Of a stretch of DNA of 64,000 nt, positions 86 to 29,205 are shown piece by piece (the first letter of the stretch is position 1; every line of letters starts with the position of its first letter). The DNA comes from an uncultured delta proteobacterium (lineage in GTDB: Bacteria; Desulfobacterota; Syntrophia; Syntrophales; UBA2185), in the NCBI GenBank assembly GCA_963729715.1, contig CAVSPA010000018.1:16191-80190 (forward strand), read 5' to 3'. A model generated the notes under the pieces. The model searched no databases and was not told the DNA's origin. It saw nothing but the letters and a program-made list of their open reading frames with translations. The position numbers and the translations under genes are program-made.

Positions 86-214
86 CAGGATGGGATCCAT
101 ACGTTGTATGGGGCAGATGGGAAAATACCGACTGTTCCAGAACCGTCATCTTTTCTACTCATTGGTCTTGGTTTAGCAGGATTGGCAGGTGTGAGGAGAA
201 AGTTTAAAAAATAG
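86..214 (+). pseudogene. PEP-CTERM sorting-signal tail with no intact upstream reading frame (remnant or frameshifted 3' end of an exported-protein gene)
   Basis: The frame ending at TAG 212-214 reads ..KIPTVPEPSSFLLIGLGLAGLAGVRRKFKK*. That is a VPEP motif, a hydrophobic helix and a basic tail. The same frame is closed by TGA at 83-85 with no ATG in between, and the other plus-strand frames are also closed. Confidence 0.4.
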
Positions 215-1338: not shown

Positions 1339-2013
1339 TCACTTTTTCGGTCCGAAGATTTCCAATGAAATGATTCTCCCGTTCTCCCAACCAACCCTGT
1401 AGACTTGGATGATATCGGCTGGTATTTCGCTAGATGTTGAGCTCGTAATACCCTCGACGGTGTAATAAATTTTGTTGTCGACCTTCTCTGTCTTGATAAC
1501 ATAAGGATCTCTAACTATCAAAAGACCCATGGCCTTGCGTATAATATCCGAGTTTGCGTATTTGCTGATGACTGCCCTGTATCTTTTCTGCGATGTATGA
1601 GCCTGCATGCATTCCTTCATTTCAGGAATAATATCGGCGACAGCAATCCCCTTTTTTGCACCCAGGGGAGTGAAGGATACAATCCTTCTATTTTCCCAGC
1701 ACACCTTATATGTCTGGACGATATCACGCGGAATTTCAGATGCTGTTTCCACCGTGACACCCTCTACAGTGTAACAGATTTTCTGCCCTTCTCGATCCGC
1801 ATTCGTGATATAGGGCTCCTTGATGATCAGAAGTCCCATGGCCTGATTGACAATGGCTGGGTCGGCATATTTCTGTATAACGGACTTGTACTCTTTCTGC
1901 GATCCGTGGGAACGCATGCACTCCCTCATCTCGGGGATAACCTCCATCGCGAAGGCATGACCCCACATTCCAAAGAAAAGATACATTATGAAGCAAATCG
2001 TAGTTCTCTTCAT
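1339..2013 (-). CDS. Exported protein built from two tandem ~95-aa repeats, unknown function
   Basis: Signal peptide MKRTTICFIMYLFFGMWGHAFA with GGAGGTG upstream. Repeat 1 reads IPEMRECMRSHGSQKEYKSVIQKYADPAIVNQAMGLLI..; repeat 2 reads IPEMKECMQAHTSQKRYRAVISKYANSDIIRKAMGLLI.. Confidence 0.7.
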   Translation of the reverse strand: MKRTTICFIMYLFFGMWGHAFAMEVIPEMRECMRSHGSQKEYKSVIQKYADPAIVNQAMGLLIIKEPYITNADREGQKICYTVEGVTVETASEIPRDIVQTYKVCWENRRIVSFTPLGAKKGIAVADIIPEMKECMQAHTSQKRYRAVISKYANSDIIRKAMGLLIVRDPYVIKTEKVDNKIYYTVEGITSSTSSEIPADIIQVYRVGWENGRIISLEIFGPKK

Positions 2014-2056
2014 CTTCGTCCACCTCCACTTAATTCCGTTCATCCAAAATCTTCAC

Positions 2057-2611
2057 TCAGCGACTTTTATCTTCCTCATTGAGTTTCTTCAAATAATCCA
2101 AGATTTCCTCATAGTTTGGCGAGCCATCCTTGGCGTAACGTACGACACCTTTTTTGTCGATGATCACCGTGCGCCGGTTGAAGACGAAGAGCGATCCCGG
2201 GGGTATCACGCCAAAAAAATCACCGAGATAACCGGAAATATTAGAGAGTATCGGAAAGGTCAGTTTCAGGGATTTGGCCCAGTATTTTAGAGTGACAACA
2301 TCATCGCGGCTGACGCCCGTGACCCGGGCGTTGAGGGACTCATAGAGGGGAAAGTGCCTCTGATGACCCATCATTTCACCCGATCAGATCGGTGTGAAAG
2401 CCGCAGGGAAAAATGTCATAATCAGATAATACCTCCCATAGTAATCCTGATTGTAGCCGACCAGCCGATCCTCTGTAGAAGACAGGTAAAAGTTTAGTGT
2501 CTGCTTGTCTAGGAGGCTTTCCACCTTGAAAGCGGCTTGGGCATTAGACAGAGTCAGAATACTGCAGACGAGGGTTGCAAGAACAAGAATTGTTTTAGTC
2601 TGCTTTTTCAT
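2057..2611 (-). CDS. Exported AhpC/TSA (BCP/peroxiredoxin-like) protein with an in-frame UGA (Sec candidate) at the peroxidatic Cys position
   Basis: ORFs 2384-2659 and 2057-2374 share one frame and are separated only by TGA 2384-2386. The joined product reads ..MTFFPAAFTPI-U-SGEMMGH.. GAGGAG lies upstream of the ATG at 2611, and the signal peptide ends ..SNAQA. Confidence 0.75.
2354..2386 (-). other. UGA codon plus SECIS-like hairpin
   Basis: RNA reads UGA UCGGGUGAAA UGAUG-GGU-CAUCA, with flanking GUG..CAC. The stem starts 11 nt after the UGA and the apical loop is GGU. Confidence 0.55.
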
Positions 2612-2787
2612 AAAAATCTCCTCATTGAAAAGAAACAATGATGCCGTTCCCTGCATCATTAGAATCGCGGGATGATGGAAATGTTTTCAGGAAAAGCCGG
2701 GGACTCCTGATTCAGAAAATTTACGAGGTCGATGCCTTCACCCGACCACACTTAACCCGGAATCGCTCATCCCGAAAATCTCCCCGC

Positions 2788-3099
2788 TCATTTCACGGGT
2801 GTCGGACGCCCACGAACGTGGAAGCCCCCCTCTATCAGGGCCTTTAAGATGCTGTCGACGTTAGTCACCTTGTCGTCAAAACTTACGACAAAGACCTCTT
2901 TCCGGGCGTCATAATCGGTGCCTGTCACTCCGTCGACATTTTCCAGGATAACACCTACCCTGGTTTTCTGCACTCAGGTCTTGCAATCGGCAATTTTGAT
3001 CTCCACCTTGCTCTCGGCGCCATGTGCGGGTTGAGAAACAGTAAAAGCGATCAGTAAAATCAGTAAAAGGGGGGAAACAAAGACCGGTTTTAATCTCAT
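2788..3099 (-). CDS. Exported HMA-fold (MerP/CopZ-like) metal-binding protein with a C-x-x-U motif (Sec candidate)
   Basis: From the ATG at 3099 there are 41 codons: signal peptide MRLKPVFVSPLLLILLIAFTVSQPAHG, then AESKVEIKIADCKT. TGA 2974-2976 follows in frame, then VQKTRVGVILENVDGVTGTDYDARKEVFVVSFDDKVTNVDSILKALIEGGFHV. This matches the GMxCxxC..V..L....GV layout of HMA domains. Confidence 0.7.
2943..2976 (-). other. UGA codon plus SECIS-like hairpin
   Basis: RNA reads UGA GUGCAGAAAA CCAGG-GUAGGUGUUAU-CCUGG. The stem starts 11 nt after the UGA and the loop contains GGU. Confidence 0.5.
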
Positions 3100-3125
3100 G
3101 ACTTAATCCGTCGGGCCGATCCCTT

Positions 3126-3689
3126 TCAAGCCCAGTCATCCAAATCAATATCCGGGCAAAGCCCCATCATGTTGTCGACCCATTCCTCGTTGTCCTTGAT
3201 CCACTGCCTGGCATCGGCCCGTGAAATCATGTTCTCCTTGACCAGGTTCATGGCGGACTCAAGTTTGCCTCCGCATAAGCAGAATTGCTTGACGAGTGTC
3301 GTAAGCGCTGGTCTCTTCTTCTGCAGACCGCTACGAGCTATGGTATGAATCGTTTTCTTTTCGTCTATCCAGTTTGGACCGAGGTCTTCGACCTTCTTGG
3401 CATATTTGGTGTAGTAAGCTTTCTGTTCCGGTAATGTCGCGCTTAATGTGGCGTCGTACTTCCCCTCAACTATGCCTTTCCACATGTCATCAACGGTGGT
3501 CTTAACAAGATTGACCTTTATGCCTAACTTGTCCTCGAGGATGTACTTCAGCATGTATGATTTTGCAATGGAATCCTTTGTATCGATATAAGCCACGGTG
3601 ACCTGCGGTGCCGCCGCAATTGCGGCGGAGACCGTCATGACAATCATGAACGCGGCAACTATGCTTATCTTCAATAGATAACGCCTCAT
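3126..3689 (-). CDS. Glycine-betaine/quaternary-amine binding (OpuAC-like) periplasmic protein; no cognate permease or ATPase nearby
   Basis: Signal/anchor MRRYLLKISIVAAFMIVMTVSAAIAAA. The body resembles substrate-binding domains of betaine ABC systems (..VTVAYIDTKDSIAKSYMLKYILEDKLG..). The family call is from memory. Confidence 0.6.
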   Translation of the reverse strand: MRRYLLKISIVAAFMIVMTVSAAIAAAPQVTVAYIDTKDSIAKSYMLKYILEDKLGIKVNLVKTTVDDMWKGIVEGKYDATLSATLPEQKAYYTKYAKKVEDLGPNWIDEKKTIHTIARSGLQKKRPALTTLVKQFCLCGGKLESAMNLVKENMISRADARQWIKDNEEWVDNMMGLCPDIDLDDWA

Positions 3690-3761
3690 AATAACCTCCT
3701 TTCCAAAATATTTTTCTTTCGGTTGAGAAATCCAACCGGACATCCCACCTAGGAAGTAAAT

Positions 3762-4934
3762 TTAGGTTGCCCTGAACTCGATGGTATCGCCATTGCCGAG
3801 GTAAGCCTTGTCCTTTGACCGGAAACGGGCCGTTCCCTGGACGATGGGGTATCCCGCTTCGATGAACTTCTTGGCGCAGGTGATCCCTGTGCAGTGGTTG
3901 CAGCCAACCTTCTCGAACTCGTACTTCCTCATGGAAAGGACCAGGTCATCGTATTTGGGATCCCAGTCCTCGAAGGGCGAGATGTGCAGCCCGCCGTAGA
4001 TGCCGTAGTTTTTCTTGTACTTGATGGTGTCCTTGGCCGTAGCGGCGAACTGGATAATCCCCTGGTGGCAGCAGCCCGTCACGGAGACCATCCCCGCGTC
4101 CTTGACATTGAAGTACCACGATTGTTCACCATAGACCCGGCATATGATGGGAATGGCGAAGTTGTAAATAGCGCAACCCGAGAAGAGAGGAGTCAGTCCC
4201 GGCTTGGTAACCACTAGCTTACCCCGATGACCGCTGTCCTTGATATACTGCATGCCCTCCTGGTAGAACCCTTCAGGAATGTAAGTAATTATCTCCGGGT
4301 TATACTTATACACCACGGGCAGACCCCAGAAGTGGTCGAAGTGTTCATGGGTTACCATGAATAAATCTATTTCCTTACGCTCAAGCATCCGGTCAATCCC
4401 CTCGCGCTTATAAGCCTGATCCATCCAGTTGTAAGACCATCCAGCATCCTGGAGTATCTTCTTCTTCGTGCCGTCCAGGAGTTCTACTTCGATGAGGCAG
4501 GAAAACCCTCCGGCGTTCTCAGGATGAACGGCATTTTCGATTTGAAACTGCCAGGCCTTGTCTAAATCACGGGGCAGCCACCGCTTGATCTCCTTGATAC
4601 CCTTCTCGTAGGAACCCTTCCCAAGTTGCCCTTTCGGTTCTGCAAAAGGCGGCCAATTATACGTGTACTGGTTGACCAGCAATCCCCCGGATCCCTTGAT
4701 GTCACCCATGAGTACTTTATTCTCGAACCAACTCGTCTCTGAAACATTCGTTACCTTAACGCTCCTGCATTCCCCAATATCAATATTTTTGGGCGCGACT
4801 CTCGCGAAATGACTCTTACGCCAGGGGCTGTAAGAGTATATGCCCATGGCCCCAATAGTGCCTGTAACTCCTCCCACGATAAGACCCTTGACAAAATCGC
4901 GCCGGTTCAGGCCTTTCTTTTCTTCTTCTGCCAT
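3762..4934 (-). CDS. Tat-exported metallo-beta-lactamase-fold protein (COG1237-like)
   Basis: Twin-arginine motif NRRDFVKGLIVGG. It has the HxHxDH motif (VTHEHFDHFWG) and C-terminal motifs VTGCCHQG and GCNHCTG, which are shared with ORF 20095-21051. Confidence 0.8.
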   Translation of the reverse strand: MAEEEKKGLNRRDFVKGLIVGGVTGTIGAMGIYSYSPWRKSHFARVAPKNIDIGECRSVKVTNVSETSWFENKVLMGDIKGSGGLLVNQYTYNWPPFAEPKGQLGKGSYEKGIKEIKRWLPRDLDKAWQFQIENAVHPENAGGFSCLIEVELLDGTKKKILQDAGWSYNWMDQAYKREGIDRMLERKEIDLFMVTHEHFDHFWGLPVVYKYNPEIITYIPEGFYQEGMQYIKDSGHRGKLVVTKPGLTPLFSGCAIYNFAIPIICRVYGEQSWYFNVKDAGMVSVTGCCHQGIIQFAATAKDTIKYKKNYGIYGGLHISPFEDWDPKYDDLVLSMRKYEFEKVGCNHCTGITCAKKFIEAGYPIVQGTARFRSKDKAYLGNGDTIEFRAT

Positions 4935-4995
4935 AATTAGTCCTCCTTCAGTTTAGGAGAAATTTTCCCGAAGAGGGGAAAATCTGTTTTAAAAT

Positions 4996-5121
4996 TCAGC
5001 TTATTTTGGTTAGCATCCAGTTCCATTTTGCCATGATGGGCAGGGCCCATACAACGGCAAAATAAACCAGAATGCCGAGAACGATGCCCACAAAAATGCC
5101 AAACTTATATTCTGTGCTCAT
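4996..5121 (-). CDS. 41-aa single-pass membrane peptide
   Basis: MSTEYKFGIFVGIVLGILVYFAVVWALPIMAKWNWMLTKIS. AAGGAGGAG lies 5 nt upstream, immediately after the stop of the 423-aa membrane protein gene. It is below the ORF-track length cut-off. Confidence 0.6.
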   Translation of the reverse strand: MSTEYKFGIFVGIVLGILVYFAVVWALPIMAKWNWMLTKIS

Positions 5122-5133
5122 TTCATCTCCTCC

Positions 5134-6405
5134 TTATGTAATGGCGGTTTCTGATGTCTTGACCTTCTTCCATCCCGGCCAGTTGTCCATAAACCAGTGA
5201 TTGATGAGCATGATGTTGATAAACCAGATGGTGGGAATCATAGGGAATTGCTGGGGATGTGAGTAGCCCTTCTGGGTGCCCAAGACCAGGTGGCTGGTGT
5301 TGTAGTAAAGCCAGTAGACAAAAAGTCCGCCCATGATGGCGATCAGGGTCCGGATAAGCCAATTAACAGGAATACTGTACTTCCTCGGCCAGTTATTGCA
5401 GTAGAACTTGACAAAGAGTGCCGGAATGAGGAAGAAGACAATCGTTTCACCCACATGGAGCCAGCGCCAGTCCGGGGCTGCATCCCGCCTGGTTCCCCGG
5501 ATAGCTGGGCCCCACCACAATTCCTGTGCAAAGTAAAGAAACAGAAAACAGCACCAGGCAATAGCGATGATGCCGAAGAACGCCACAAGCCGACGGGTCC
5601 AATCATGCTTAATGACCCGGAAGGGGTAACGATCCCAGATGCTTTCGTACATCCAGACAATAACGGTGCAGCACATGATCCAAGCCACGTGGAAATTGCC
5701 GCTTACCGTGTCGGCGAAATTCTCCCAGTAGGGCGGCGCGATGGAGCAGAAGTACTGCCAGGGATAATAGAGGATGCCCATGTGGGGGTGCATGGTGCAG
5801 AAATAGACAATGGTACTTATAAAGAAGGTGACAATGAGAACGGTCGTACCCAGGACCGGTTGTTTAAGGTTCTGCCAGGGGGCCATCTCCATCGCCACCG
5901 GCCACGCGGGGCTCAGCCAGGAGGCAATGGCAGCAAACATGAGGCAGGCCAGGGCCGAGTACTCGATAGCGAAGAACTCCGTGATCCCCGGCAGCTTCAT
6001 CAATTGGTGAGAATTAAAGTAGGCCATCGACAAGTTTCCCAGAAGTCCTTCAAAGAAACCCTTGATGAGTATCATAAGAATGATCACGGAAACAGCCGTC
6101 ATCGCGACTCCTTTCAAAACAGGGTGCCAGTTTTCCAACTGTTGTCTCCTGAAAGGCCAGTAATGATAAATATATACCATCCAGATTAACATGATCAGGA
6201 GCCAACGTGTGTACATGTAGCCCACGTAAGGGGTATACATCCGCAGCCATCCTCTTGGATCTTGAAAGATCCACCATGTAACGTAAAAAATAGCGAGAAT
6301 AAAAATTGTGTTCACAATCTGCGGTATTGGTGCAGGCCATCTGGGGACGAGCGTCCGCTCTTCAAGATATCCTTCACCATAACGCTCCTCGACTTTTCCC
6401 TCCAT
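5134..6405 (-). CDS. Polytopic, Trp-rich integral membrane protein, family not recognised
   Basis: A 423-aa ORF with many hydrophobic segments. The long plus-strand ORF opposite it (5290-6189) is a compositional shadow. Confidence 0.75.
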   Translation of the reverse strand: MEGKVEERYGEGYLEERTLVPRWPAPIPQIVNTIFILAIFYVTWWIFQDPRGWLRMYTPYVGYMYTRWLLIMLIWMVYIYHYWPFRRQQLENWHPVLKGVAMTAVSVIILMILIKGFFEGLLGNLSMAYFNSHQLMKLPGITEFFAIEYSALACLMFAAIASWLSPAWPVAMEMAPWQNLKQPVLGTTVLIVTFFISTIVYFCTMHPHMGILYYPWQYFCSIAPPYWENFADTVSGNFHVAWIMCCTVIVWMYESIWDRYPFRVIKHDWTRRLVAFFGIIAIAWCCFLFLYFAQELWWGPAIRGTRRDAAPDWRWLHVGETIVFFLIPALFVKFYCNNWPRKYSIPVNWLIRTLIAIMGGLFVYWLYYNTSHLVLGTQKGYSHPQQFPMIPTIWFINIMLINHWFMDNWPGWKKVKTSETAIT

Positions 6406-6464
6406 ACCAAACCTCCTTTCTCTTTTTATGAAGTTGGACGATTGCCAAGAATGGTTATCTTTTG

Positions 6465-6788
6465 TCAGTTACCTTTTGTCTCCTCCCGTGAGAAGATCTC
6501 CCTGGCAATATCCATTTTACTTTTTTCCTTGACATCAATTCCTCTTTTAAGAGCCTCTTCCATAAGTAACTCACCGGATTCCGAAAGCAGGGGATAGCAG
6601 GTCTCAAAGGAATTGAAATAGTTGTATTCACTTTCTTCTCGAAAATCAGTGCGCGTGCCATCAGCTATTAAGTCGGCGATCTCTCTGATCAGATCTTTCG
6701 TCAAAAAGTTCCTTCTCCTTTTATCGAATGTTATCAACTTTTCCCCTTCTTTAATCTTTGGTGGAGATAGACCGTGCCATACTATCAA
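6465..6788 (-). CDS. Hypothetical protein (start uncertain, TTG)
   Basis: The ORF overlaps the upstream stop by 4 nt. It has no recognisable motifs. Confidence 0.35.
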   Translation of the reverse strand: MIVWHGLSPPKIKEGEKLITFDKRRRNFLTKDLIREIADLIADGTRTDFREESEYNYFNSFETCYPLLSESGELLMEEALKRGIDVKEKSKMDIAREIFSREETKGN

Positions 6789-7114
6789 TCCACTATATCT
6801 CCACGGTTCAATTTACGCATAATGTATCGATGAAAAACCGCGTCAACACCGCCAATGACGTTATCAATGAACCGGACGTTATATTTTCTCATCAACTCCT
6901 GGCAATCATCCTGGGTGCCCCCGCATATGACTACCTCAACACGCATGCGGCTGAGGAGGGCGGTTTGATCCTCCAGTTGTAAGTCCCCTATGGGAATAAC
7001 CCCCCTCTCTTCAATAGTCCCGATGTTATTGACGGTGAACACGACTATTTCAGAAGAGTGATCATATCTGGGTGCGACTCTTCCCTTTATCTGGCAAATG
7101 GCAATTTTCCTCAT
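6785..7114 (-). CDS. NifX/NifB-type (dinitrogenase FeMo-cofactor biosynthesis domain) protein
   Basis: MRKIAICQIKGRVAPRYDHSSEIVVF.. and ..VEVVICGG..NVRFIDNV resemble the NifX-like domain. It is related to ORF 26867-27241. Confidence 0.55.
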   Translation of the reverse strand: MRKIAICQIKGRVAPRYDHSSEIVVFTVNNIGTIEERGVIPIGDLQLEDQTALLSRMRVEVVICGGTQDDCQELMRKYNVRFIDNVIGGVDAVFHRYIMRKLNRGDIVD

Positions 7115-7126
7115 GGTTCAGGATTT

Positions 7127-7142
7127 TGCACAGTATATGCCA
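7127..7142 (-). promoter_or_regulatory. Sigma-54 (-24/-12) promoter candidate
   Basis: The minus strand reads TGGCATATACTGTGCA, with GG and GC at the consensus spacing of TGGCAC-N5-TTGC. Caveat: the -12 GC lies only ~14 nt from the ATG at 7114. Confidence 0.4.
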
Positions 7143-7304
7143 TGTGCTACGAATTAAATAATTCACAATAAAGTCAGCTATTTGAGAATATGAGACAATT
7201 TAGAGAAGCATAAAACGACATTGCAAAATGTTGCAGGATGAAACATCAGAAAGAGTGCCTATGAGCAGAGGCTTATAAGGGTGGGCATTGGAACGTTTCA
7301 GACA

Positions 7305-7325
7305 CAATGCAACAATGTTGCATTG
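7305..7325. promoter_or_regulatory. Perfect 10-1-10 palindrome, candidate activator binding site (UAS)
   Basis: CAATGCAACA-A-TGTTGCATTG. TGCAACA recurs at 7326-7332 and AATGTTGCA recurs at 7227-7235. All lie upstream of the sigma-54 candidate and just 3' of the activator gene. Confidence 0.45.
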
Positions 7326-7332
7326 TGCAACA

Positions 7333-8694
7333 TCAGTTGCTTTGTTTTGAAAAGAGGTTATGCTTTTTCATCTTCCGCCAGAGAGTTGTTCTGTTCATTT
7401 GGAGTGCTCTGGAGGTTTCGCCCCGTCTCCACCCATGTGCTTTGAGCGCCACGAGGAGCTTCTCTTTTTCATTGAAGGAGGCCCCTTGCTTGGAGACAAT
7501 ATCCACATTGGATGATGAAAACAGCGGGGATGAATTATTTTTCTCAAAAAGATAGAGTGGGAGAAGGTCTTTATCCATTTTTCCGCCTCGGTAAAGGATC
7601 ATGGCGTGTTCAATGATGTTTTTGAGTTCCCGGACATTGCCGGGGTAGGGGTAATTAAGAAGAAGTACCATGAAATCGGATGTAACAATCTTAATTTCCT
7701 TTCCAAGAAGTCTCGCCTGCTCTGCCAAAAAATGATCCACAAGCAGAGGGATGTCCGTAGATCTTTCCCTCAGAGGCGGGATTTCGACCTCGACCACCCT
7801 CAGACGATAATATAAGTCCTGCCGGAAGATCTTTTCCCGGGTCATGTCGGGAAGCTTGCGATTTGTGGAGGTGATGACCCTCACGTCGACAATAACAGGA
7901 CGGGTAGACCCAAGGGGATAGAATTCTTTTTCATCCAGGACCTGTAGAAGCTTGGCTTGGAGGTCGTTGGGAAGCTCACCAATTTCGTCGAGGAAGATGG
8001 TTCCCCCTTCAGCCGTCTGGAATCTTCCAAGCTTATCATGCTTCGCATCGGTAAAGGCACCTTTTTTGTATCCGAAAAGTTCTGATTCGAGTAGTTGCGA
8101 TGGAAGAGCAGCACAGTTGACTTTGATAAAAGGACCATCTCGGCGATGACTGGCATTGTGAACGGCCTTGGCAAAGATGTCTTTGCCGGTCCCCGTTTCA
8201 CCGAGAAGAAGAACAGGGGCATCCGTCGGGGCGACTGTGTTCAGGAGATCGAAGATTCTTAGGATCTTTTCGTCCTTGCCGATGATATCTCCGAAAGAGT
8301 GCAACCCCCGAATCTCCTTTTCTAGGGTGACACGGATCGAGTCATCTTGAAAAGACTCGACACCGCCGATGATCCGCCCCTGATCATCCTGAAGAATCGC
8401 AACAGTGATATCAACGGGGATCTCTTTGTTGTGCCTGTTCAAAATCCTATTCCGGACCTTGACAATCTTGGAGCCGGTCTCCATAGCCATCCTGAGATAG
8501 CACCCCCTCTGGCAGAGTTCGGTCCGGAAGATCTCATAACATTTACGGCCCAAAGCCTCTTTCTTCGAAAAGCCGGTGATCTTCTCCGCTTCTTCGTTGA
8601 AGCAGTTGATATTCCAGCCCATGTCCACGGTGAATATTCCCAAGGCCACACTATTCAGTATTTTCCTGCTATCGAATTCTCTTTTCATAAACAC
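7333..8694 (-). CDS. Sigma-54-dependent transcriptional activator (PAS sensor + AAA+ + C-terminal HTH)
   Basis: Walker A GETGTGKD, the GAFTDA loop (KKGAFTDA) and an ESELFGY-type motif (ESELFGYKKG). The C-terminus reads ..RALQMNRTTLWRKMKKH. Confidence 0.9.
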   Translation of the reverse strand: MFMKREFDSRKILNSVALGIFTVDMGWNINCFNEEAEKITGFSKKEALGRKCYEIFRTELCQRGCYLRMAMETGSKIVKVRNRILNRHNKEIPVDITVAILQDDQGRIIGGVESFQDDSIRVTLEKEIRGLHSFGDIIGKDEKILRIFDLLNTVAPTDAPVLLLGETGTGKDIFAKAVHNASHRRDGPFIKVNCAALPSQLLESELFGYKKGAFTDAKHDKLGRFQTAEGGTIFLDEIGELPNDLQAKLLQVLDEKEFYPLGSTRPVIVDVRVITSTNRKLPDMTREKIFRQDLYYRLRVVEVEIPPLRERSTDIPLLVDHFLAEQARLLGKEIKIVTSDFMVLLLNYPYPGNVRELKNIIEHAMILYRGGKMDKDLLPLYLFEKNNSSPLFSSSNVDIVSKQGASFNEKEKLLVALKAHGWRRGETSRALQMNRTTLWRKMKKHNLFSKQSN

Positions 8695-8816
8695 GTAAAC
8701 TTGCCGAAACCCAAAGTATAATAACAGTCAAGCCATCTAAAGTCAAACGGATACCCCGGGGTTCTGCGTTCTTGACTTAACCCGTGAGTTGTGACACAGA
8801 AAAACCGGGAGGTAGA

Positions 8817-10727
8817 ATGACCTTGGCGACCTTGCGTGACCTTCAGCCGTCGGGCATCGTAAATTATCCTGGAATCGGTTTCCCAAATTTCATCGAAAAC
8901 ATTTTAATCAGGATTTCCTTCGAGCCTGTAATCAAGGAAAACATCGGGTGGATCGGTACAGCGTACCGCACGGGCCGCAAGAGAAGCTGGACATTCCGGA
9001 TCCGGGGTTTCAAAGGGATCTACTGCCTGACTTTTCAGGGTTTCGAGGAGGAAGCAGCGGGTTGGCATCATGGCGTCTTTGAGCTTCAGTATTTCCCGAA
9101 GTCCGATGAGGCCATTCTGGATACTTTTTCCGTCCGGGAAAATCTTCTGCGCCTGGATCCGTTTTTTGATAAATTGGTCCGGCGTGCTCCGGAAGAGGAA
9201 GATCCTCTGGTGTCACAATTCATGGTGGGGAACATAATCTTGACCTGCGATGCCGGCGAGAAAAACCTCTTTCTTTCTCTCTGGGCACCGGTCAGATGGC
9301 GTGAGATCCGGCGGGCAGGCCTCTACATGAACGCACATGACGGGTCGCCGGTGGAGGCCGTTCCTCCGGGGGGCACTGACAGAAATGTTCCCTCTTTCGC
9401 CCTTGCTTGGCCATTCTTCGACAGACTCGTTTTGACCCTTGCCTGCCAAATGAGGCGACCTCCCCTTTGTGTAATACTGAAGCGCAGAAACTGGCCCGTT
9501 TGGATCATAGCCGGAGGCAATGATTGCGTGCCGTCTGAGGAAAATTTTACACTACAGAATTTTCTTTCCGTTGGATTCGGTCCGTGGTCCAAGAATAAGA
9601 CCGAAGATCCACGTGTCAAATGGGCAATGGACTTTTTCCCGGCGGATACCGGTTTCTCCGCATCGTCTAAAACAAGAGTCGTTTGGTCCGTGACACCTTG
9701 GAATCCTTTACCTAAAAGGGGGAATTCACTATGGTGGAAAGCACCCTTCTGGAAGGAAAAGGGCAGAATGAGAGGATTTCAAACCTTGGGGATTCATTAT
9801 AGACCCCCGCTTCTGGTGATCACGGGATTCTTGGGGAGCGGCAAGACGACACTGCTCAACCAGATCGTCGAGTATAAAGCCCTTTCGTCTTACAAGTTCA
9901 TAGCCGTTATCCAGAATGAGGTGGGTGATGTCGATGTAGACAGCAAGCTTATGGACAGCGCTTATTGCATCACGTCCTTGGATGAAGGTTGCGTCTGCTG
10001 CACCCTGCTTGGAGAGTTCCGTCAGGCAGTCCGGAAGATCTGCATCGAATATGAACCGGACTTAATCATTATCGAGACCACAGGTGTGGCCGATCCCCAC
10101 AGCATCCTTGCCGCGATCCCTGACCTCGAACCATTTGTCCGCTTTGATACTGTTGTATGTGTTGTGGACGGTCCGAATCTTGAATATATCTTGAAAGACT
10201 ATCCTGTTGCACGATCTCAAATTGAATATGCCAGCTTGATCCTCCTCAATAAGAAGGATCTTATGGATGCAGAAACCCTGGCAAAAGCGGAGAGGATCAT
10301 CTGTGCAATCAATCCTCATGCAACTATTCTTCATACGATCTATGCCCGTGTGAATCCAGGCCTTTTTTTCGCCATTGAGGAAAATATTGGTTTGCCAATG
10401 ATGAAGAGAGATCGGATATCACTTGAAGCAACAGATTTGGACGCCCAGCAGGTTCGTGCTTTTACACTCATATTACCCGGGGACCTGAAGGAACCTTGTT
10501 TCATGCAGTTTCTGGATGATCTTCCCGATTCGGTATACCGCCTGAAAGGCGTCATTAAAATAAAGGGCCGGGAGCAACCGCAGCTGCTTCAATACGTGGT
10601 CCACCGCTATGAAATCTCCAACTTTTTGGAAAAGAACATGGAGCCCAACACTCTCGTCTTTATCGGCCGGAATCTCGACGAAAATGCCTTGAGGAAAGAT
10701 TTCCTGAGATGTCTTGCTGAAGAGTGA
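8817..10727 (+). CDS. COG0523 (CobW/YjiA-type) G3E GTPase with an unrecognised N-terminal domain of about 325 aa
   Basis: GGGAGG lies 5 nt before the ATG at 8817. The C-terminal half has GFLGSGKTTLLN, the CxCC motif (EGCVCCTL) and ETTGVADP. The N-terminal half has no motif I recognise. Confidence 0.8.
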   Translation: MTLATLRDLQPSGIVNYPGIGFPNFIENILIRISFEPVIKENIGWIGTAYRTGRKRSWTFRIRGFKGIYCLTFQGFEEEAAGWHHGVFELQYFPKSDEAILDTFSVRENLLRLDPFFDKLVRRAPEEEDPLVSQFMVGNIILTCDAGEKNLFLSLWAPVRWREIRRAGLYMNAHDGSPVEAVPPGGTDRNVPSFALAWPFFDRLVLTLACQMRRPPLCVILKRRNWPVWIIAGGNDCVPSEENFTLQNFLSVGFGPWSKNKTEDPRVKWAMDFFPADTGFSASSKTRVVWSVTPWNPLPKRGNSLWWKAPFWKEKGRMRGFQTLGIHYRPPLLVITGFLGSGKTTLLNQIVEYKALSSYKFIAVIQNEVGDVDVDSKLMDSAYCITSLDEGCVCCTLLGEFRQAVRKICIEYEPDLIIIETTGVADPHSILAAIPDLEPFVRFDTVVCVVDGPNLEYILKDYPVARSQIEYASLILLNKKDLMDAETLAKAERIICAINPHATILHTIYARVNPGLFFAIEENIGLPMMKRDRISLEATDLDAQQVRAFTLILPGDLKEPCFMQFLDDLPDSVYRLKGVIKIKGREQPQLLQYVVHRYEISNFLEKNMEPNTLVFIGRNLDENALRKDFLRCLAEE

Positions 10728-11333: not shown

Positions 11334-12368
11334 CTATTTAAAGGAAAGCAAGCCTGATCTGAGATTTGACTTCTTGTATCTCATTCCCAATTTATTTCGA
11401 ATGTTGAATCTGTGAAAATCGACCGTCTGTTGCGAACAGCCCAACAACTCGGCAATATCTTTTGTTCTCTTTCCCTCTTTTACGAGGATAGCAATCTCGA
11501 TTTCTCTAGGAGTGAAATTAAAATATCTGGATCTTAAATTGTGCAGGAATGGCGAAACGATATCGCTTAGATGGGATTCTAATATATTTACATAATCCAT
11601 TTGAGCATTGCTCAACCGCATCTTCTTGAATTTTTTAATATACGGCATCACAATTTCTTTAACGTTAGATAATATCTTTTCTTCAAGTTCAACTTTGTCG
11701 TCTTCCCTGCGCTTTAATAGAACCGATAATGCAATATTAACTCTTTCGAGATTTTCTGATTTCTTACTTATTTCCCTATCTCTTTTTCGCAGTGCGGCGG
11801 CGATTTTCTTGCGTTCTATAATTTCTTGCTTCAGAAGTTTATTCGCTCTGGAGAGATCGGCAGTCCGATTGTTGACTTGCCGCTCAAGCTCTTCTTCTAG
11901 GCGCTTTTGATCCGTTACATTTATGACCGTTGCAATGGCTGCCGGCTTCCCCTCGTATGTAAAATAGCTTGGTCTAACCTGTATCCACCGCTCCTTTCCC
12001 TTTTTTGTCAAGATCTTGTATGCCCAAGATGAAGGAAGAGTCTTGTCTCCTTTTTGCCGGGCAAGACCCCTTTCTTTGACTAATGCCTTGAAATCGGGAT
12101 GAGCATAATCCCAGAAGTTCATTGTGACGAGTTCCTTTGCGCTGTAACCGGTAAGCAACTCGTGGCTGGGATTCACATACTTAAATTTATTGCCTTGGAA
12201 AATGACTATTGAAGCGGTAGCGGATTCTACAAACGTCCTGAATGGTGCTTCATTTACAGACATTTCATCCGGGTGCTTGCTCACAGTATTTGCGAATATA
12301 TCCCCCTCAGATGATAGATAATCGCTGTTGCGTGATAGCTTTTGTTTCTGTTTTGAATTTTTTCTCAT
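11334..12368 (-). CDS. PAS - coiled-coil - LuxR-type HTH transcriptional regulator
   Basis: The C-terminus FTPREIEIAILVKEGKRTKDIAELLGCSQQTVDFHRFNIRNKLGM is a LuxR/GerE HTH. The N-terminal part has a PAS-like segment. Confidence 0.8.
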   Translation of the reverse strand: MRKNSKQKQKLSRNSDYLSSEGDIFANTVSKHPDEMSVNEAPFRTFVESATASIVIFQGNKFKYVNPSHELLTGYSAKELVTMNFWDYAHPDFKALVKERGLARQKGDKTLPSSWAYKILTKKGKERWIQVRPSYFTYEGKPAAIATVINVTDQKRLEEELERQVNNRTADLSRANKLLKQEIIERKKIAAALRKRDREISKKSENLERVNIALSVLLKRREDDKVELEEKILSNVKEIVMPYIKKFKKMRLSNAQMDYVNILESHLSDIVSPFLHNLRSRYFNFTPREIEIAILVKEGKRTKDIAELLGCSQQTVDFHRFNIRNKLGMRYKKSNLRSGLLSFK

Positions 12369-12519: not shown

Positions 12520-13287
12520 GTGTCACAGATTCTTTATAAGAAGGAAGATCATATCGCTTATATTTCTTTAAATAACCCTGACAGTTTAAATGCATTGAAT
12601 CTGGAAATGGCGAAAGAATTTGAAGCTATCTGGGTGGATTTTCGGGATGACAAAGAAATGTGGGTGGCCATTTTAAGTGGCGAAGGCAAGTCTTTTTGTG
12701 CCGGTGCGGATGTAAAAAAGATGGAAAGGGGCCGATGGCAGTTCCGGCAGTCCCTCATTTTAGGGGATTACAGTGTATCCTCCAGACGTCATAACATATG
12801 GAAGCCTATCATCGCCGCAGTCCATCGCCACGTCTATGGGGCAGGACTTTTATTGGCCCTGGAATCAGATATCAGAATTGCATGCGATGATGCCTTATTT
12901 GGAATACCGGAAGGGAAGGTGAATGTGCCCACATTATTTGCGCCGTTTGCTTCCAGATATATGCCGAGAGCGATAGCTTGCGAGTTATTGTACACAGGAA
13001 GGCCAATAGATGCACAACGTGCATATCAGGTGGGTCTGGTGAACAAGGTTGTATCCAGAGACCAGCTGATACCCACTGCCACAGAAATAGGAAAACAAAT
13101 TTGTGAAAATGGGCCATTATCAATTTGGGCTACCAAGGAACTATTCTGCAGGGGTGAGGATATGAGCTATGAGTGTGCTCTGGCCCTCATTGAACATATC
13201 GTGCCGCCCATCTTCAACTCTGAGGATTCCGTCGAGGCTAAACGAGCATTTCTTGAAAAAAGAAAACCTGTATGGAAATTAAAGTAA
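12520..13287 (+). CDS. Enoyl-CoA hydratase/isomerase (crotonase) family protein
   Basis: AGGAGG lies upstream of a GTG start. Motifs ..GEGKSFCAGADVKKM.. and ..YGAGLLLALESDIRIA.. are typical of the family. Confidence 0.85.
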   Translation: MSQILYKKEDHIAYISLNNPDSLNALNLEMAKEFEAIWVDFRDDKEMWVAILSGEGKSFCAGADVKKMERGRWQFRQSLILGDYSVSSRRHNIWKPIIAAVHRHVYGAGLLLALESDIRIACDDALFGIPEGKVNVPTLFAPFASRYMPRAIACELLYTGRPIDAQRAYQVGLVNKVVSRDQLIPTATEIGKQICENGPLSIWATKELFCRGEDMSYECALALIEHIVPPIFNSEDSVEAKRAFLEKRKPVWKLK

Positions 13288-27833: not shown

Positions 27834-27950
27834 GTAAGGTATGCCGTGTAAAACGTATGACTAGTCGGTTAAAGTCCGACGGTGGGAGTTCTGTAGTTCG
27901 CCCACGTAGCTGGAGGGAAGTGTTAAGGGTAACCTGAAGCATTAAGTTCC
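27834..27950 (+). repeat. Copy 3 of the ~115-nt conserved structured element (continuous with the intron-like RNA below)
   Basis: GTAAGGTATGCCGTGTAAAACGTATGACTAGTCGGTTAAAGTCCGACGGTGGGAGTTCTGTAGTTCGCCCACGTAGCTGGAGGGAAGTG..AACCTGAAGC. Confidence 0.75.
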
Positions 27951-28520
27951 CTGACAAAGGTTCCTATAGGGAGTCGAGCAAACCTGCGGGTCGCAGCGTG
28001 AGCGAACCTAGATGTAGCCTCAAAAATCACAATGGAGTTGTCGACCCTCTCCTACACAGGGGAAGACCGGAGCATCTATCCTGACGAAAACCACCAGAAC
28101 CGATAGATGGACTTCCGTGGTAACAGGGGTGACACGCAGGGGCAGCCAGACGAGAATGAACGCGGGAGACCCTTGTCGATGCTGCGAGAGCGGCAACTGG
28201 TGGATATAAGGAAACGAAGTTTCACTGGGTCGGCACGGGAGTCGGAGTTGCCCATAGTACCGCTTGTATCTCAAGGACAGCATAACCTTGAGAGAGGAAA
28301 GGGGCAATACCTTCATCATGCTTCTAAAGGAGAGAAGGAAAGGAGATTGCGGTAACGCTATCAACTCCAAAGATTCCAGGAACTCCGGTGGAAGCTATAC
28401 TGGAAGGCCAAGTGAAAGCGAAAGCCTCTGGAAGAAGATGATTGGAAAGCCGTGTGCGGGAAAACTGCATGCACGGTTGTGTGTCCAGCGAAGGCTGGTC
28501 TGTTCAGTAGGAGTCAAACC
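27846..28520 (+). ncRNA. ORF-less group II intron-like ribozyme (5' end tentatively at GTGTA; 3' end not determined)
   Basis: Domain-I-like 5' region, many perfect local helices (for example CATCTATC..GATAGATG) and a canonical domain V at 28448-28478. No RT/maturase ORF lies anywhere in 27815-29205. Confidence 0.5.
28448..28478 (+). ncRNA. Group II intron domain V hairpin
   Basis: AGCCGUGU-GCGG-GAAAA-CUGC-AU-GCACGGUU. It has the AGC triad at the base, an 8-bp lower helix, a 2-nt bulge on the 3' strand, a 4-bp upper helix and a GAAA-type loop. By eye it closely matches the yeast ai5gamma D5, GAGCCGUAUGCGAUGAAAGUCGCACGUACGGUUC. Confidence 0.7.
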
Positions 28521-29205
28521 TGCCAGGGTAAAAGCCAGAGCCCTGTAGCTTGGATAGCAGGGTGGAGGAAAACCAAAATCTTGGAGCCTATTGACACACC
28601 CATCAAAAGGAAGGGAGCGAGTTACCAGGCCGTAACGAGAGTGAACGCAGAGGTGGCCCCGAAAGTTCGAAGCCTCGGAAGCAGAGCTGGAGCTCACTAT
28701 CAGTGGAACCACGCTTATTTGGAGGTTTCGTTTTACATGGGCCTCACCTGAGGTACAAATGCCTCGCCCGATCGCGACATGGAAGGAATTTGACCCTTCG
28801 CAAATCATAGGACGCGAAGCTACCAGTAGAACATCCGGACATAGCAAATTTACTATCAGCGAAGACGGCAGCAGCATAACCGAGAATGGTGCAGACGGCA
28901 CTTTCACGTACTACCGTCAGTAAAGGCAAGGGTTTCGGAGTCTGTGCTTGGGGCCGAACTTTGCGTTGGTTTGAAATGGCAATGCCCTGTGTTCAGCCCC
29001 ATGGCTGACACAATAGTTGTGGGTGCCACTATTAACGGATCTCTTTCATATTTTGATTCATCTTTCTCACGCAGTACGGGTTGAAACACGCGAAGGCTCG
29101 AAAGCTTATTTTCAGTTCGCATAAAATCCGGCTGCCTTCCTTGTTTGACATGCCTATCAGGACATTGTAGAGTTTAAGTCATAATACTTCCATGGAGGTG
29201 CCACG

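What the first reader, a model, noticed from the sequence alone, without database searches (positions are those of the whole stretch)
1339..8694. Same-strand envelope gene string downstream of a sigma-54 activator gene, combining two exported Sec proteins with unrecognised membrane components: candidate uncharacterised periplasmic redox/detoxification module
Nine tightly spaced genes follow the PAS-AAA+ activator gene on the minus strand:
- a NifX-like protein
- a small unknown protein
- a 423-aa Trp-rich polytopic membrane protein
- a 41-aa membrane peptide
- a Tat-exported COG1237 MBL-fold protein
- an orphan OpuAC-like binding protein with no ABC partner genes
- the CxxU HMA protein
- the Sec-peroxiredoxin
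- an exported protein made of two tandem Cys-containing repeats

I know of no described pathway with this combination. The concentration of exported redox/metal-binding selenoproteins next to a Tat-dependent metallo-hydrolase and an unclassified membrane protein suggests one functional unit. It could handle a periplasmic oxidant, metal(loid) or onium compound. The functional link is inference from adjacency only.
Basis: inference. Interest (0 to 1): 0.7.

Follow-up and report, generated by a model that had tools for sequence, protein, structure and literature searches.

The report
Conserved anaerobe envelope enzyme–permease module
The gene string is real, and its core (an exported metallo-hydrolase-fold protein, an unclassified membrane protein, helper proteins and a redox-sensing switch) recurs in hundreds of anaerobe genomes with no described function, while the two selenoproteins are local additions found only in this bacterium's close relatives.

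Summary
All nine minus-strand genes exist as described. Seven ORFs run from first start to stop. The two selenoprotein genes each read through one in-frame TGA.

Comparing 82 related loci splits the string in two:
- **Conserved core.** The 423-aa membrane protein and the Tat-signal MBL-fold protein are adjacent in 82/82 loci. They stay adjacent in subfamilies only 30-47% identical. A small "RRxF" protein, a NifX-like protein and a periplasmic repeat protein are frequent companions.
- **Lineage-specific additions.** The CxxU heavy-metal-associated (HMA) protein (4 loci) and the Sec-peroxiredoxin (5 loci) occur only in close Syntrophales relatives. The truncated OpuAC-like protein (12 loci) is also found in Rhodospirillaceae.

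The activator carries the OrpR signature (C52/E54/C61/C65, GAFTDA). A conserved sigma-54 promoter precedes the NifX-like gene. This predicts expression at low redox potential, which argues against an oxidant-defence role.

The membrane protein matches no Pfam or NCBIfam model. It has an internal duplication, and distant paralogues sit in acyl-CoA operons where a permease would be expected.

Best reading, about 0.4: a periplasmic metalloenzyme, loaded with metal in the cytoplasm, paired with a permease. The substrate is unknown.

The parts
8784..10727 (+). CobW-type (COG0523) GTPase with a ~330-aa N-terminal domain specific to this module.
   Evidence: Pfam cobW 9.6e-44 and CobW_C 6.4e-17 at residues 342-644; nothing matches residues 1-340. 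GCVCC motif. Found in 66/82 related loci, usually just downstream of the MBL gene. The N-domain also occurs as a stand-alone 294-339-aa protein next to the membrane/MBL pair in other subfamilies (E 3e-27). In Rhodospirillaceae that protein has a His-rich tail.
7333..8694 (-). OrpR-type sigma-54 enhancer-binding protein (PAS, AAA+, Fis-type HTH).
   Evidence: Pfam domains. It has C52, E54, C61, C65 and GAFTDA. These are the positions reported for Desulfovibrio vulgaris OrpR/DVU2106 (PMC8359166; PMC4641369). The same signature is present in 22 module-linked activators. A sigma-70-like promoter lies at 8746-8718.
7308..7331 (-). Candidate upstream activating sequence: overlapping palindromes GTTGCA-N3-TGCAAC. 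A further half-site lies at about 7230-7235.
   Evidence: Four half-sites in 300 bp against 0.48 per kb in the whole window. The same palindrome lies between the activator and NifX-like genes in L019, L015 and L067. Its function is inferred.
7128..7142 (-). Sigma-54 promoter element, TGGCAT-N5-GTGC.
   Evidence: One match in this window is not significant on its own (50 found, 57 expected). A GG-N10-GC element does sit at the same place, 12-25 nt before the NifX-like start codon, in L005, L007, L008, L010, L012, L015, L019, L067 and L083. The leader would be almost absent.
6785..7114 (-). NifX-like (Nitro_FeMo-Co-type) small cytoplasmic protein; proposed cofactor or metal carrier.
   Evidence: Sub-threshold Pfam hit; NCBIfam MrpORP C-terminal domain E 1.8e-6. 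Present upstream of the membrane gene in 16 loci by tblastn and 27 by clustering. In L165 it is in frame with the MBL gene, but an RBS and ATG are kept before the Tat motif, so the fusion is ambiguous.
6465..6788 (-). Small protein with an N-terminal RRxF(L/F) motif and a DYFxSFExxYPLL motif; function unknown.
   Evidence: No family hit. Homologues lie directly beside the membrane gene in about 42 loci (four clusters). They are also present in the 30-35% identity subfamilies and in Rhodospirillaceae (E 1e-5 to 1e-14).
5134..6405 (-). 423-aa polytopic membrane protein of an unclassified family; proposed permease subunit.
   Evidence: No Pfam or NCBIfam match for any of 17 family members. No PDB sequence or fold match. 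It is 68-90% identical across Desulfobacterota, Rhodospirillaceae, Leptospirales and SAR324. Internal duplication TM2-5 vs TM6-9: hhalign probability 94%, E 1.5e-7. Paralogues 21-27% identical sit inside acyl-CoA operons.
4996..5121 (-). 41-aa single-helix membrane peptide, a split-off last helix of the membrane protein.
   Evidence: It aligns with the C-terminal helix fused to the ~470-aa homologues. It is a separate ORF in 13 related loci.
3762..4934 (-). Tat-signal MBL-fold (COG1237-type) metalloprotein with a ~100-aa N-terminal extension; proposed periplasmic catalytic subunit.
   Evidence: RRDFVKG motif; homologues carry Pfam TAT_signal PF10518. HEHFDH, TGCCH, GGLH and CNHCTG motifs. AlphaFold2 pLDDT 74, pTM 0.80. 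Foldseek top hits are 7dck (phosphodiesterase tw9814, E 7e-15), 2p4z and 3h3e. Adjacent to the membrane gene in 82/82 loci.
3126..3743 (-). Exported, truncated OpuAC-like protein (probable start near 3689).
   Evidence: Pfam OpuAC matches only model positions 2-82. The choline-binding-protein model matches only positions 207-270. Present in 12/82 loci, in Syntrophales and Rhodospirillaceae (27% identity, E 3e-19). No ABC transporter genes nearby.
2788..3099 (-). Exported MerP/CopZ-like HMA selenoprotein, motif C-K-T-U (TGA at 2974-2976).
   Evidence: Translation. NCBIfam MerP E 5e-8. TGA conserved in L019, L010 and L007; TGC (Cys) in L050. Conserved hairpin 10 nt after the TGA. Found in only 4/82 loci.
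2627..2661 (-). Hairpin followed by a T-run between the HMA and peroxiredoxin genes; possible terminator or attenuator.
   Evidence: Terminator-like site in the scan; sequence read. The stem is weak (3 G-C pairs) and function is untested.
2057..2611 (-). Exported Sec-peroxiredoxin, motif FTPIU (TGA at 2384-2386).
   Evidence: Pfam AhpC-TSA 1.2e-18. TGA conserved in five loci. Downstream structure has z = -2.9 and is conserved. RBS and ATG at 2611. Found in 5/82 loci; on the opposite flank of the module in L007, L008 and L010.
1339..2043 (-). Exported protein of two tandem ~100-aa repeats; relatives elsewhere are mostly single-repeat.
   Evidence: Repeats are 54% identical. No family or PDB match. 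Homologues lie between the MBL and CobW genes in 31/82 loci.

Best explanation
**What it is.** One conserved envelope module plus lineage-specific additions.

**Shown**
- The membrane protein (with its split last helix) and the Tat-signal MBL-fold protein are an obligate pair.
- They travel with a CobW-type GTPase, or with its module-specific N-domain alone.
- They also travel with a small RRxF protein and often a NifX-like protein and a periplasmic repeat protein.

**Inferred**
1. The OrpR-like activator holds a redox-sensitive Fe-S cluster in its PAS domain. It fires the sigma-54 promoter in front of the NifX-like gene only at low redox potential.
2. The MBL protein receives its metal in the cytoplasm from the CobW-type chaperone. 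The NifX-like and RRxF proteins help.
3. The folded MBL protein is exported by the Tat pathway and works at the outer face of the membrane protein.
4. It cleaves an extracytoplasmic ester-type bond (phosphodiester, ester or lactone).
5. The membrane protein, a duplicated-repeat permease, takes up the anionic product.

**Additions.** The OpuAC-like protein, HMA-U, PrxU and the repeat protein are periplasmic accessories. HMA-U and PrxU are limited to Syntrophales.

**Rough confidence by step**
- One conserved module: about 0.9.
- OrpR-type, sigma-54 control: about 0.7.
- Metal loading followed by Tat export of an enzyme: about 0.55.
- Hydrolase plus product uptake: about 0.3.
For: **Pairing**
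- Adjacent and co-directional in 82/82 loci.
- Kept in subfamilies 47%, 35% and 30% identical, in either gene order.
- CobW in 66/82 loci.
- Stand-alone N-domain homologues carry His- or Cys-rich tails: HHHHHDHDHHH in L001, HHCCYHDH in L167.

**Enzyme**
- Intact HxHxDH motif plus the COG1237 motifs.
- Confident MBL fold; the nearest solved structure is deposited as a phosphodiesterase.
- Twin-arginine motif.

**Permease**
- Internal duplication.
- In 41 of 63 loci with enough flank, the 21-27% identical paralogues lie inside operons of thiolase, acyl-CoA dehydrogenase, CoA-transferase, acyl-CoA ligase or mutase genes.
- Several of those follow a sigma-54 response regulator. The layout resembles atoDAEB, where AtoE is the fatty-acid carrier. 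The ato comparison is from my own knowledge.

**Control**
- OrpR signature in 22 linked activators (PMC8359166).
- Conserved -24/-12 element.
- Enriched palindromes.
Against: - No substrate is identified.
- No catabolic genes recur next to the module, which is odd for a nutrient-uptake system.
- An elaborate helper set (GTPase, NifX-like protein, RRxF protein) is more than a plain zinc hydrolase usually needs.
- Both proteins are 65-70% identical across phyla. That constraint is stronger than is usual for a permease.
- The membrane-protein model is poor (pLDDT 59) and matches no transporter fold.
- The permease inference rests on gene context of distant paralogues only.
- The nearest characterised MBL is only 17% identical.
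- About a third of loci use a GntR-type regulator instead of OrpR.
- Co-transcription through to 1339 is untested, and a hairpin with a T-run precedes PrxU.
Confidence: 0.4

Rival explanations
1. A metal or metalloid handling system for sulfidic, very reducing conditions. The membrane protein moves a metal species. The periplasmic MBL protein and, in Syntrophales, the MerP-like Sec protein bind or release it. The CobW-type GTPase, its His/Cys-tailed N-domain and the NifX-like protein receive it in the cytoplasm.
For: - CobW-type GTPase in 66/82 loci; His- and Cys-rich tails on stand-alone N-domains.
- NifX-like protein related to the NifX-like domain of MrpORP.
- MerP-like CxxU protein.
- Near-invariant vicinal Cys pair (IMCCT) and His/Met-containing loops (TMHPHMG, SHPQQFPM) in the membrane protein.
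- OrpR is inactive when N2 sparging raises the redox potential of the culture (PMC8359166). My own inference, not stated in the passages I read, is that sparging strips sulfide and that such reducing, sulfidic conditions make trace metals scarce.
Against: - No known metal transporter, Mo/W, Zn, Ni or Co genes recur with the module, and no riboswitch was found.
- The CC pair and the HPH motif are not kept in divergent subfamilies.
- The intact catalytic motif and Tat signal of the MBL protein fit an enzyme better than a binding protein.
- HMA-U is present in only 4 loci.
Confidence: 0.15
2. One reading: a periplasmic redox or detoxification module. An MBL-fold oxidoreductase would be coupled through the membrane protein to the quinone pool and act with the Sec-peroxiredoxin and the CxxU protein against an oxidant or metalloid.
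For: - Exported peroxiredoxin and CxxU proteins flank the module in several Syntrophales, in two different arrangements.
- Some MBL-fold proteins are redox enzymes, for example flavodiiron proteins (my own knowledge).
- The activator is a redox sensor.
Against: - No cytochrome, Fe-S or flavin subunit recurs.
- The motif is the hydrolase-type HxHxDH.
- Most invariant His residues of the membrane protein are lost in divergent subfamilies, so haem ligation is unlikely.
- OrpR-type regulators switch off on oxidation (PMC8359166).
- The selenoproteins are absent from more than 90% of loci.
Confidence: 0.1
3. A cell-envelope turnover or cell-division function. The periplasmic hydrolase would trim an envelope component (lipid head group, wall or polymer phosphodiester) and the permease would recycle the product. 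This would parallel the cell-division phenotype ascribed to the OrpR regulon in Desulfovibrio.
For: - The module is self-contained, with no catabolic neighbours.
- It is very strongly conserved.
- OrpR targets in D. vulgaris are described as putatively involved in cell division (PMC8359166, PMC3897727).
- The nearest solved MBL structure is a phosphodiesterase.
Against: - The module occurs in only 393 stretches of a 185,579-species collection, too patchy for a core envelope function.
- No envelope-biogenesis genes recur nearby.
- The Mrp/MinD-type genes of the orp cluster are absent from the frequent neighbours.
Confidence: 0.1
4. The string is two or three independent units that are merely adjacent. 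The conserved core runs from 7114 to about 3762. The HMA-U, PrxU and repeat-protein genes would be unrelated periplasmic thiol/selenol proteins.
For: - HMA-U and PrxU occur in 4-5 of 82 loci.
- A hairpin with a T-run and a 128-176 bp gap precede PrxU.
- PrxU lies on the other side of the module in L007, L008 and L010.
Against: - PrxU and HMA-U stay next to the module in two different arrangements within Syntrophales.
- The repeat protein recurs in 31 loci between the MBL and CobW genes.
- The gaps from the MBL gene to the HMA gene are only 18-26 bp.
Confidence: 0.2

Closest known systems
OrpR (DVU2106) and the orp gene cluster of Desulfovibrio vulgaris Hildenborough
   Same: - PAS, AAA+, HTH activator with Cys52/Cys61/Cys65, an acidic residue at 54 and GAFTDA.
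- A sigma-54 promoter next to the activator gene.
- A divergent gene on the other side of the activator.
- A NifX-like protein among the targets.
   Different: - The Mrp/MinD-type ATPase genes of the orp operons are absent.
- The main cargo here is a membrane protein, a Tat-signal MBL protein and a CobW-type GTPase. None of these is mentioned in the OrpR papers I read.
- The palindrome differs: GTTGCA-N3-TGCAAC against GGGCGYRTTTTGCGCCC.
COG1237-type MBL-fold proteins (PDB 7dck phosphodiesterase tw9814, 2p4z, 3h3e/TM1679)
   Same: MBL fold. Shared HxHxDH, TGCxH, GGxH and HCTG motifs.
   Different: - Only 17-22% identical.
- Those proteins are 241-276 residues as solved.
- This one adds a twin-arginine signal, a ~100-residue N-terminal extension and extra invariant Cys residues (C265, C289, C345).
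- It is always paired with a membrane protein.
COG0523 / CobW-family G3E metallochaperones (ZigA, YeiR, nitrile-hydratase activators)
   Same: cobW and CobW_C domains and a CxCC motif. Encoded beside a presumed metalloenzyme client.
   Different: - It carries a ~330-aa N-terminal domain with no family match.
- That domain also exists alone next to the module, sometimes with a His-rich tail.
- No Zur-type or metal-uptake context.
atoDAEB-type short-chain fatty-acid operons (AtoE carrier, AtoC sigma-54 regulator)
   Same: Distant paralogues of the membrane protein occupy the carrier position among thiolase, CoA-transferase A/B and acyl-CoA dehydrogenase genes. Some follow a sigma-54 response regulator.
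   Different: - No sequence similarity to AtoE or to any transporter family was detected.
- The window's subfamily has no acyl-CoA genes next to it.
- The analogy is by gene position only.
MerP/MerT mercury uptake and Sec-containing MerT/CopZ fusion proteins; PrxU-type Sec-peroxiredoxins
   Same: - Exported HMA fold with a CxxU metal loop; MerP E 5e-8, MerT/CopZ selenoprotein model E 2e-4.
- Peroxiredoxin with Sec at the peroxidatic position.
   Different: - All scores are far below the curated cut-offs (33 vs 92.6 bits for MerP; 34 vs 270 for PrxU).
- No mer genes are present.
- Both proteins are limited to a few Syntrophales loci.

Membership tests
OrpR-type sigma-54 enhancer-binding proteins | PAS, sigma-54 AAA+ and Fis-type HTH architecture | tested here: met
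   Pfam PAS_9, Sigma54_activat, AAA_lid_14 and HTH_8.
OrpR-type sigma-54 enhancer-binding proteins | Cys52, Cys61 and Cys65 in the PAS domain with Asp/Glu at 54; GAFTDA variant of the GAFTGA loop | tested here: met
   The window protein has C52, E54, C61, C65 and GAFTDA at 212. So do 22 linked activators. Reference positions come from PMC8359166 and PMC4641369.
OrpR-type sigma-54 enhancer-binding proteins | Binds a redox-sensitive [4Fe-4S] cluster and is active only at low redox potential | not testable with these tools
   Needs anaerobic purification, spectroscopy and expression assays.
OrpR-type sigma-54 enhancer-binding proteins | Controls orp operons (Mrp/MinD-type ATPases and the orange protein) through the GGGCGYRTTTTGCGCCC palindrome | tested here: not met
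   No such genes in the string. A different palindrome is present. Treat it as an OrpR-like regulator of a different regulon.
Sigma-54-dependent operon | -24 GG / -12 GC element upstream of the first gene, with an adjacent activator | tested here: met
   TGGCAT-N5-GTGC at 7128-7142. Conserved position in nine orthologous loci. Actual use is untested.
Metallo-beta-lactamase superfamily, COG1237 branch | HxHxDH motif, the further His/Cys motifs and the alpha-beta/beta-alpha sandwich fold | tested here: met
   Pfam Lactamase_B 27.7 bits against a 22.7 cut-off. Motifs. AlphaFold2 plus Foldseek E 7e-15 to 7dck.
Tat substrates | N-terminal twin-arginine motif followed by a hydrophobic stretch | tested here: met
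   NRRDFVKG followed by LIVGGVTGTIGAMGIY. PF10518 is recorded on homologues. Whether the signal is cleaved or stays as an anchor is undecided. Residues just after it are invariant.
COG0523 / CobW G3E GTPases | cobW nucleotide-binding domain, CxCC motif and CobW_C domain | tested here: met
   Pfam 149.5 and 61.6 bits. GCVCC in the sequence.
NifX/NafY (Nitro_FeMo-Co) family | Match to PF02579 above its gathering score | tested here: inconclusive
   17.2 bits against a 26.3 cut-off. A homologue from a related locus scores 23.2 bits. NCBIfam MrpORP C-terminal domain E 1.8e-6. No PDB sequence hit.
OpuAC-type substrate-binding proteins | Two-lobe binding protein covering the whole ~257-position model, with ABC partner genes | tested here: not met
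   Only model positions 2-82 match, plus the C-terminal end of a related choline-binding-protein model. The protein is 205 aa and there are no ABC genes.
Bacterial selenoproteins (HMA-U and PrxU) | In-frame TGA at the redox or metal Cys position, conserved in orthologues, with Cys-containing homologues and a downstream SECIS hairpin | tested here: met
   (TGA conserved; TGC in L050). Hairpins are conserved but show no covariation. Sec insertion itself is untested.
Known secondary transporter families (APC/AAT, as some sources name the membrane protein) | Significant match to a transporter family model or fold | tested here: not met
   No Pfam or NCBIfam match for 17 members. No PDB sequence or fold match. 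The JGI/UniRef label "AAT family amino acid transporter" could not be reproduced. Only an internal duplication and gene context support a transporter.

The most novel reading that the evidence does not exclude
The MBL/membrane pair is a previously unrecognised, oxygen-sensitive periplasmic metalloenzyme complex of anaerobes. In this reading the MBL-fold subunit carries a non-standard metal centre, not plain zinc, and a dedicated maturation set installs it:
- the module-specific domain fused to a CobW GTPase,
- the NifX-like carrier,
- the RRxF protein.

The enzyme would be docked on a membrane subunit of a new fold and made only at very low redox potential. It would carry out a reaction special to sulfidic habitats. 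One example is processing of metal-sulfide, thiometallate or organo-sulfur/selenium species. The Sec proteins of Syntrophales would be its periplasmic partners.
Probability: 0.2. Interest if true: 0.85.

Novelty: new variant of a known kind. Interest (0 to 1): 0.65.

Why it matters
- **An unstudied conserved module.** Two proteins are kept at 65-70% identity across unrelated anaerobic and phototrophic lineages, are always adjacent, and have their own chaperone and redox switch. That marks an important activity nobody has assigned.
- **A new membrane-protein family.** The family has no model in Pfam or NCBIfam. Its distant branch may be an unrecognised organic-acid carrier of anaerobic fatty-acid degraders.
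- **A second OrpR regulon.** The link to OrpR gives a second, different cargo for a regulator so far known from one organism, and a testable condition for expression: low redox potential.
- **A setting for two selenoproteins.** Two exported selenoproteins of unknown role now have a concrete genetic context.
- **Testable in culture.** Cultured carriers are available for genetics and biochemistry: Desulfobacter curvatus, Rhodospira trueperi, Roseospira and Pseudodesulfovibrio species.

Tried and rejected
**Searches that found nothing for the membrane protein**
- Pfam and NCBIfam for the protein and 16 relatives.
- PDB sequence profile.
- Foldseek on a low-confidence model: best hit an alternative complex III subunit, E 0.14, TM-score 0.17, rejected.
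- Profile search of 1.84 billion representatives: only 159 clusters, mostly fragments, with no bridge to a known family.
- Plasmid collection: no hit.

**Other negative checks**
- Source names are only "hypothetical protein", "MBL fold metallo-hydrolase" or unverifiable automatic labels.
- No riboswitch or other Rfam element controls the module in the window or in six related loci.
- No anti-phage defence model matches beyond a P-loop.
- No PDB or family hits for the repeat protein, the RRxF protein, the CobW N-domain or the NifX-like protein.
- Literature searches on COG1237, tw9814, MBL with CobW and Tat, and COG0523 neighbourhoods gave nothing on this module.

**Ideas considered and set aside**
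- Haem or copper ligation by the eight invariant His residues: dropped because most are lost in divergent subfamilies.
- The special Cys motifs of the MBL protein as an Fe-S site: TGCxH and HCTG are shared by the whole COG1237 family.
- The NifX-MBL fusion in L165 as a Rosetta-stone argument: downgraded because a GGGAGG RBS and an ATG precede the Tat motif.
- The single sigma-54 match as evidence on its own: rejected (50 found, 57 expected). Accepted only because of its conserved position.

Full report
**1. The observation**

Family scans confirm these:
- a PAS / sigma-54 AAA+ / HTH activator;
- an MBL-fold protein with the twin-arginine motif NRRDFVKG;
- an AhpC/TSA peroxiredoxin;
- a MerP/CopZ-like HMA protein.

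Reading through the two in-frame TGA codons gives ADCKT-U and FTPI-U.

Support for selenocysteine:
- The TGAs are conserved in orthologues, and one HMA orthologue has TGC instead.
- Conserved hairpins follow both TGAs, though without covariation.

The membrane protein has 29 Trp in 423 residues. The 41-aa ORF is real: it corresponds to the last helix of the ~470-aa homologues.

Corrections:
- The NifX-like assignment is sub-threshold in Pfam (17.2 against 26.3 bits).
- The OpuAC-like protein matches only the two ends of the model.
- Only one Cys is common to the two repeats of the last protein.
- The peroxiredoxin gene probably starts at 2611.

**2. What is conserved**

A profile of the membrane protein found 393 matching stretches in a collection holding one genome for each of 185,579 species. 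The best 80 were retrieved. With two further places they give 82 non-redundant loci from Syntrophales, many Desulfobacterota, Rhodospirillaceae, Leptospirales, SAR324 and others.

| Component | Loci of 82 | Note |
|---|---|---|
| MBL gene | 82 | directly downstream, same strand |
| CobW-type gene | 66 | 51 of the 60 loci with at least 3 kb downstream |
| Repeat-protein homologue | 31 | between the MBL and CobW genes |
| Activator homologue | 29 | |
| RRxF protein | 20 by tblastn, about 42 by clustering | |
| NifX-like protein | 16 by tblastn, 27 by clustering | |
| OpuAC-like protein | 12 | |
| PrxU | 5 | close Syntrophales only |
| HMA-U | 4 | close Syntrophales only |

A GntR/FCD regulator with a PAS protein replaces the activator in about 27 loci.

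In the window the CobW-type gene is the divergent one at 8784-10727.

**3. Depth of the association**

Subfamilies whose membrane proteins are 47%, 35% and 30% identical to the window's still have an MBL homologue next door. That homologue is 53%, 43% and 38% identical and lies upstream instead of downstream. An RRxF-protein homologue is also present.

The 30% subfamily, seen in the two loci examined (L165 and L167), adds further parts:
- in L165, an activator 49% identical and a NifX-like domain directly before the MBL gene;
- in both, a 328-339-aa protein homologous to the N-terminal domain of the window's CobW-type protein but lacking the GTPase.

In Rhodospirillaceae the corresponding 294-aa protein ends in HHHHHDHDHHH. 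The conserved set is therefore the MBL protein, the membrane protein, the RRxF protein and the "CobW-N" domain, with the NifX-like protein and an OrpR-like activator as frequent members.

**4. The regulator**

The activator has Cys at 52, 61 and 65, Glu at 54, and GAFTDA. These are the features reported for OrpR (DVU2106) of Desulfovibrio vulgaris. [quoted passage not shown] Supporting evidence:
- Twenty-two module-linked activators share the signature.
- A TGGCAT-N5-GTGC element at 7128-7142 is matched by GG-N10-GC elements at the same position in nine orthologous loci.
- The element sits so close to the start codon that the mRNA would be nearly leaderless.
- GTTGCA-N3-TGCAAC palindromes are enriched upstream, in the window and in three relatives.

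The cargo differs from the orp operons, and the palindrome differs from the OrpR site. I therefore call it OrpR-like, not OrpR.

**5. The two central proteins**

*MBL protein.* The model is confident in the core (pLDDT 74, pTM 0.80). It matches the COG1237 structures 7dck (deposited as a phosphodiesterase), 2p4z and 3h3e. It shares their HxHxDH, TGCxH, GGxH and HCTG motifs. It adds a Tat signal and an N-terminal extension of about 100 residues.

*Membrane protein.*
- It has no match in any library, and its model is poor.
- It contains an internal duplication, TM2-5 against TM6-9.
- A branch 21-27% identical lacks the MBL partner.
- In 41 of 63 informative metagenome loci that branch lies inside operons of thiolase, acyl-CoA dehydrogenase, CoA-transferase, acyl-CoA ligase or mutase genes.
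- That is the position of a substrate carrier. This is the only positive evidence that the family transports something, probably an organic anion.

**6. Mechanism**

The best-supported reading has four steps:
1. The OrpR-like activator switches the operon on under strongly reducing conditions.
2. The MBL protein is loaded with its metal in the cytoplasm by the CobW-type chaperone and its helpers.
3. The MBL protein is exported folded by the Tat pathway.
4. It acts beside the membrane protein, which imports the product.

The first three steps rest on homology and conserved context. The hydrolase-plus-uptake step is inference.

Points against it: catabolic neighbours are missing, the helper set is heavy, and the sequence constraint is unusually strong.

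Rivals:
- metal handling under sulfidic conditions;
- a redox or detoxification enzyme;
- envelope turnover.

None has recurrent supporting neighbours.

**7. The selenoproteins**

HMA-U and PrxU are limited to close Syntrophales relatives. They stay beside the module in two different arrangements, so a local functional tie is possible. In the window a hairpin with a T-run and a longer gap precede PrxU. The selenoproteins are add-ons and do not define the module.

**8. Novelty**

I found no description of this module. Its parts include known families (OrpR-like activator, COG1237, COG0523, Prx, HMA). Four parts have no family at all: the membrane protein, the RRxF protein, the CobW-N domain and the repeat protein.

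I rate it a new variant of a known kind, namely a Tat-exported periplasmic metalloenzyme with a membrane partner and its own maturation factors. I give about a one-in-five chance that it is a truly new enzyme system.

Noticed in passing
L085-L164 (metagenome loci), e.g. L100, L101, L127, L130: A membrane-protein branch 21-27% identical to the window's sits in operons such as sigma-54 response regulator, thiolase, membrane protein, acyl-CoA dehydrogenase, CoA-transferase A and B. It also sits between acyl-CoA ligases or family III CoA-transferases and a B12 mutase. It looks like an undescribed organic-acid carrier family of anaerobes.
   Followed up: partly
window 27862-28001 and 28505-28640 (+): Two Rfam matches to group II intron domains D1-D4 (RF02003; 84 and 104 bits), about 640 bp apart.
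   Followed up: no
window 104-214 (+): A short ORF ends in VPEPSSFLLIGLGLAGLAGVRRKFKK, which looks like a PEP-CTERM sorting signal. The rest of the gene may lie off the window's start.
   Followed up: no
window 7112-7142 (-): The sigma-54 -12 element lies only about 13 nt before the NifX-like start codon, and no Shine-Dalgarno sequence is visible. The same tight spacing (12-25 nt) holds in nine orthologous loci, which suggests a nearly leaderless sigma-54 transcript.
   Followed up: partly
window 6465-6788 (-); L165 10394-10657; L167 3739-4020; L168 4473-4739; L001 7477-7914: The small conserved protein starts with a twin-arginine-like motif ([SK]R[RK]xF[FL]) but has no hydrophobic stretch after it. 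It resembles the start of a Tat signal without being one. Its role is unexplained; it could be a Tat-signal mimic or an export checkpoint.
   Followed up: partly
L165 6327-7742 and 10967-11170: In this divergent locus the NifX-like ORF runs in frame into the MBL gene, with the Tat motif at residue 117. A GGGAGG RBS and an ATG are kept just before the motif. A 67-aa desulforedoxin-like Cys-rich protein is encoded just downstream of the module.
   Followed up: partly
L001 6596-7480 (Roseospira visakhapatnamensis): The stand-alone relative of the CobW N-terminal domain ends in a His-rich tail (HHHHHDHDHHH), like nickel or zinc chaperones. Rhodospirillaceae loci have this protein instead of the GTPase fusion.
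   Followed up: partly
window 11334-12368 (-) and 12520-13287 (+): Just beyond the CobW-type gene lie a 344-aa ORF and a 255-aa ORF. By eye their translations look like a PAS plus LuxR-type HTH regulator and an enoyl-CoA hydratase-like protein. No family scan was run on either.
   Followed up: no
window 40649-40678 (-): The 15-mer AGGCACCACCCATGC occurs twice in direct tandem.
   Followed up: no
L022 13126-13288 (-): An FMN riboswitch lies about 2 kb downstream of the module in a Rhodospirillum MAG, on the opposite strand. It does not appear to control the module.
   Followed up: no
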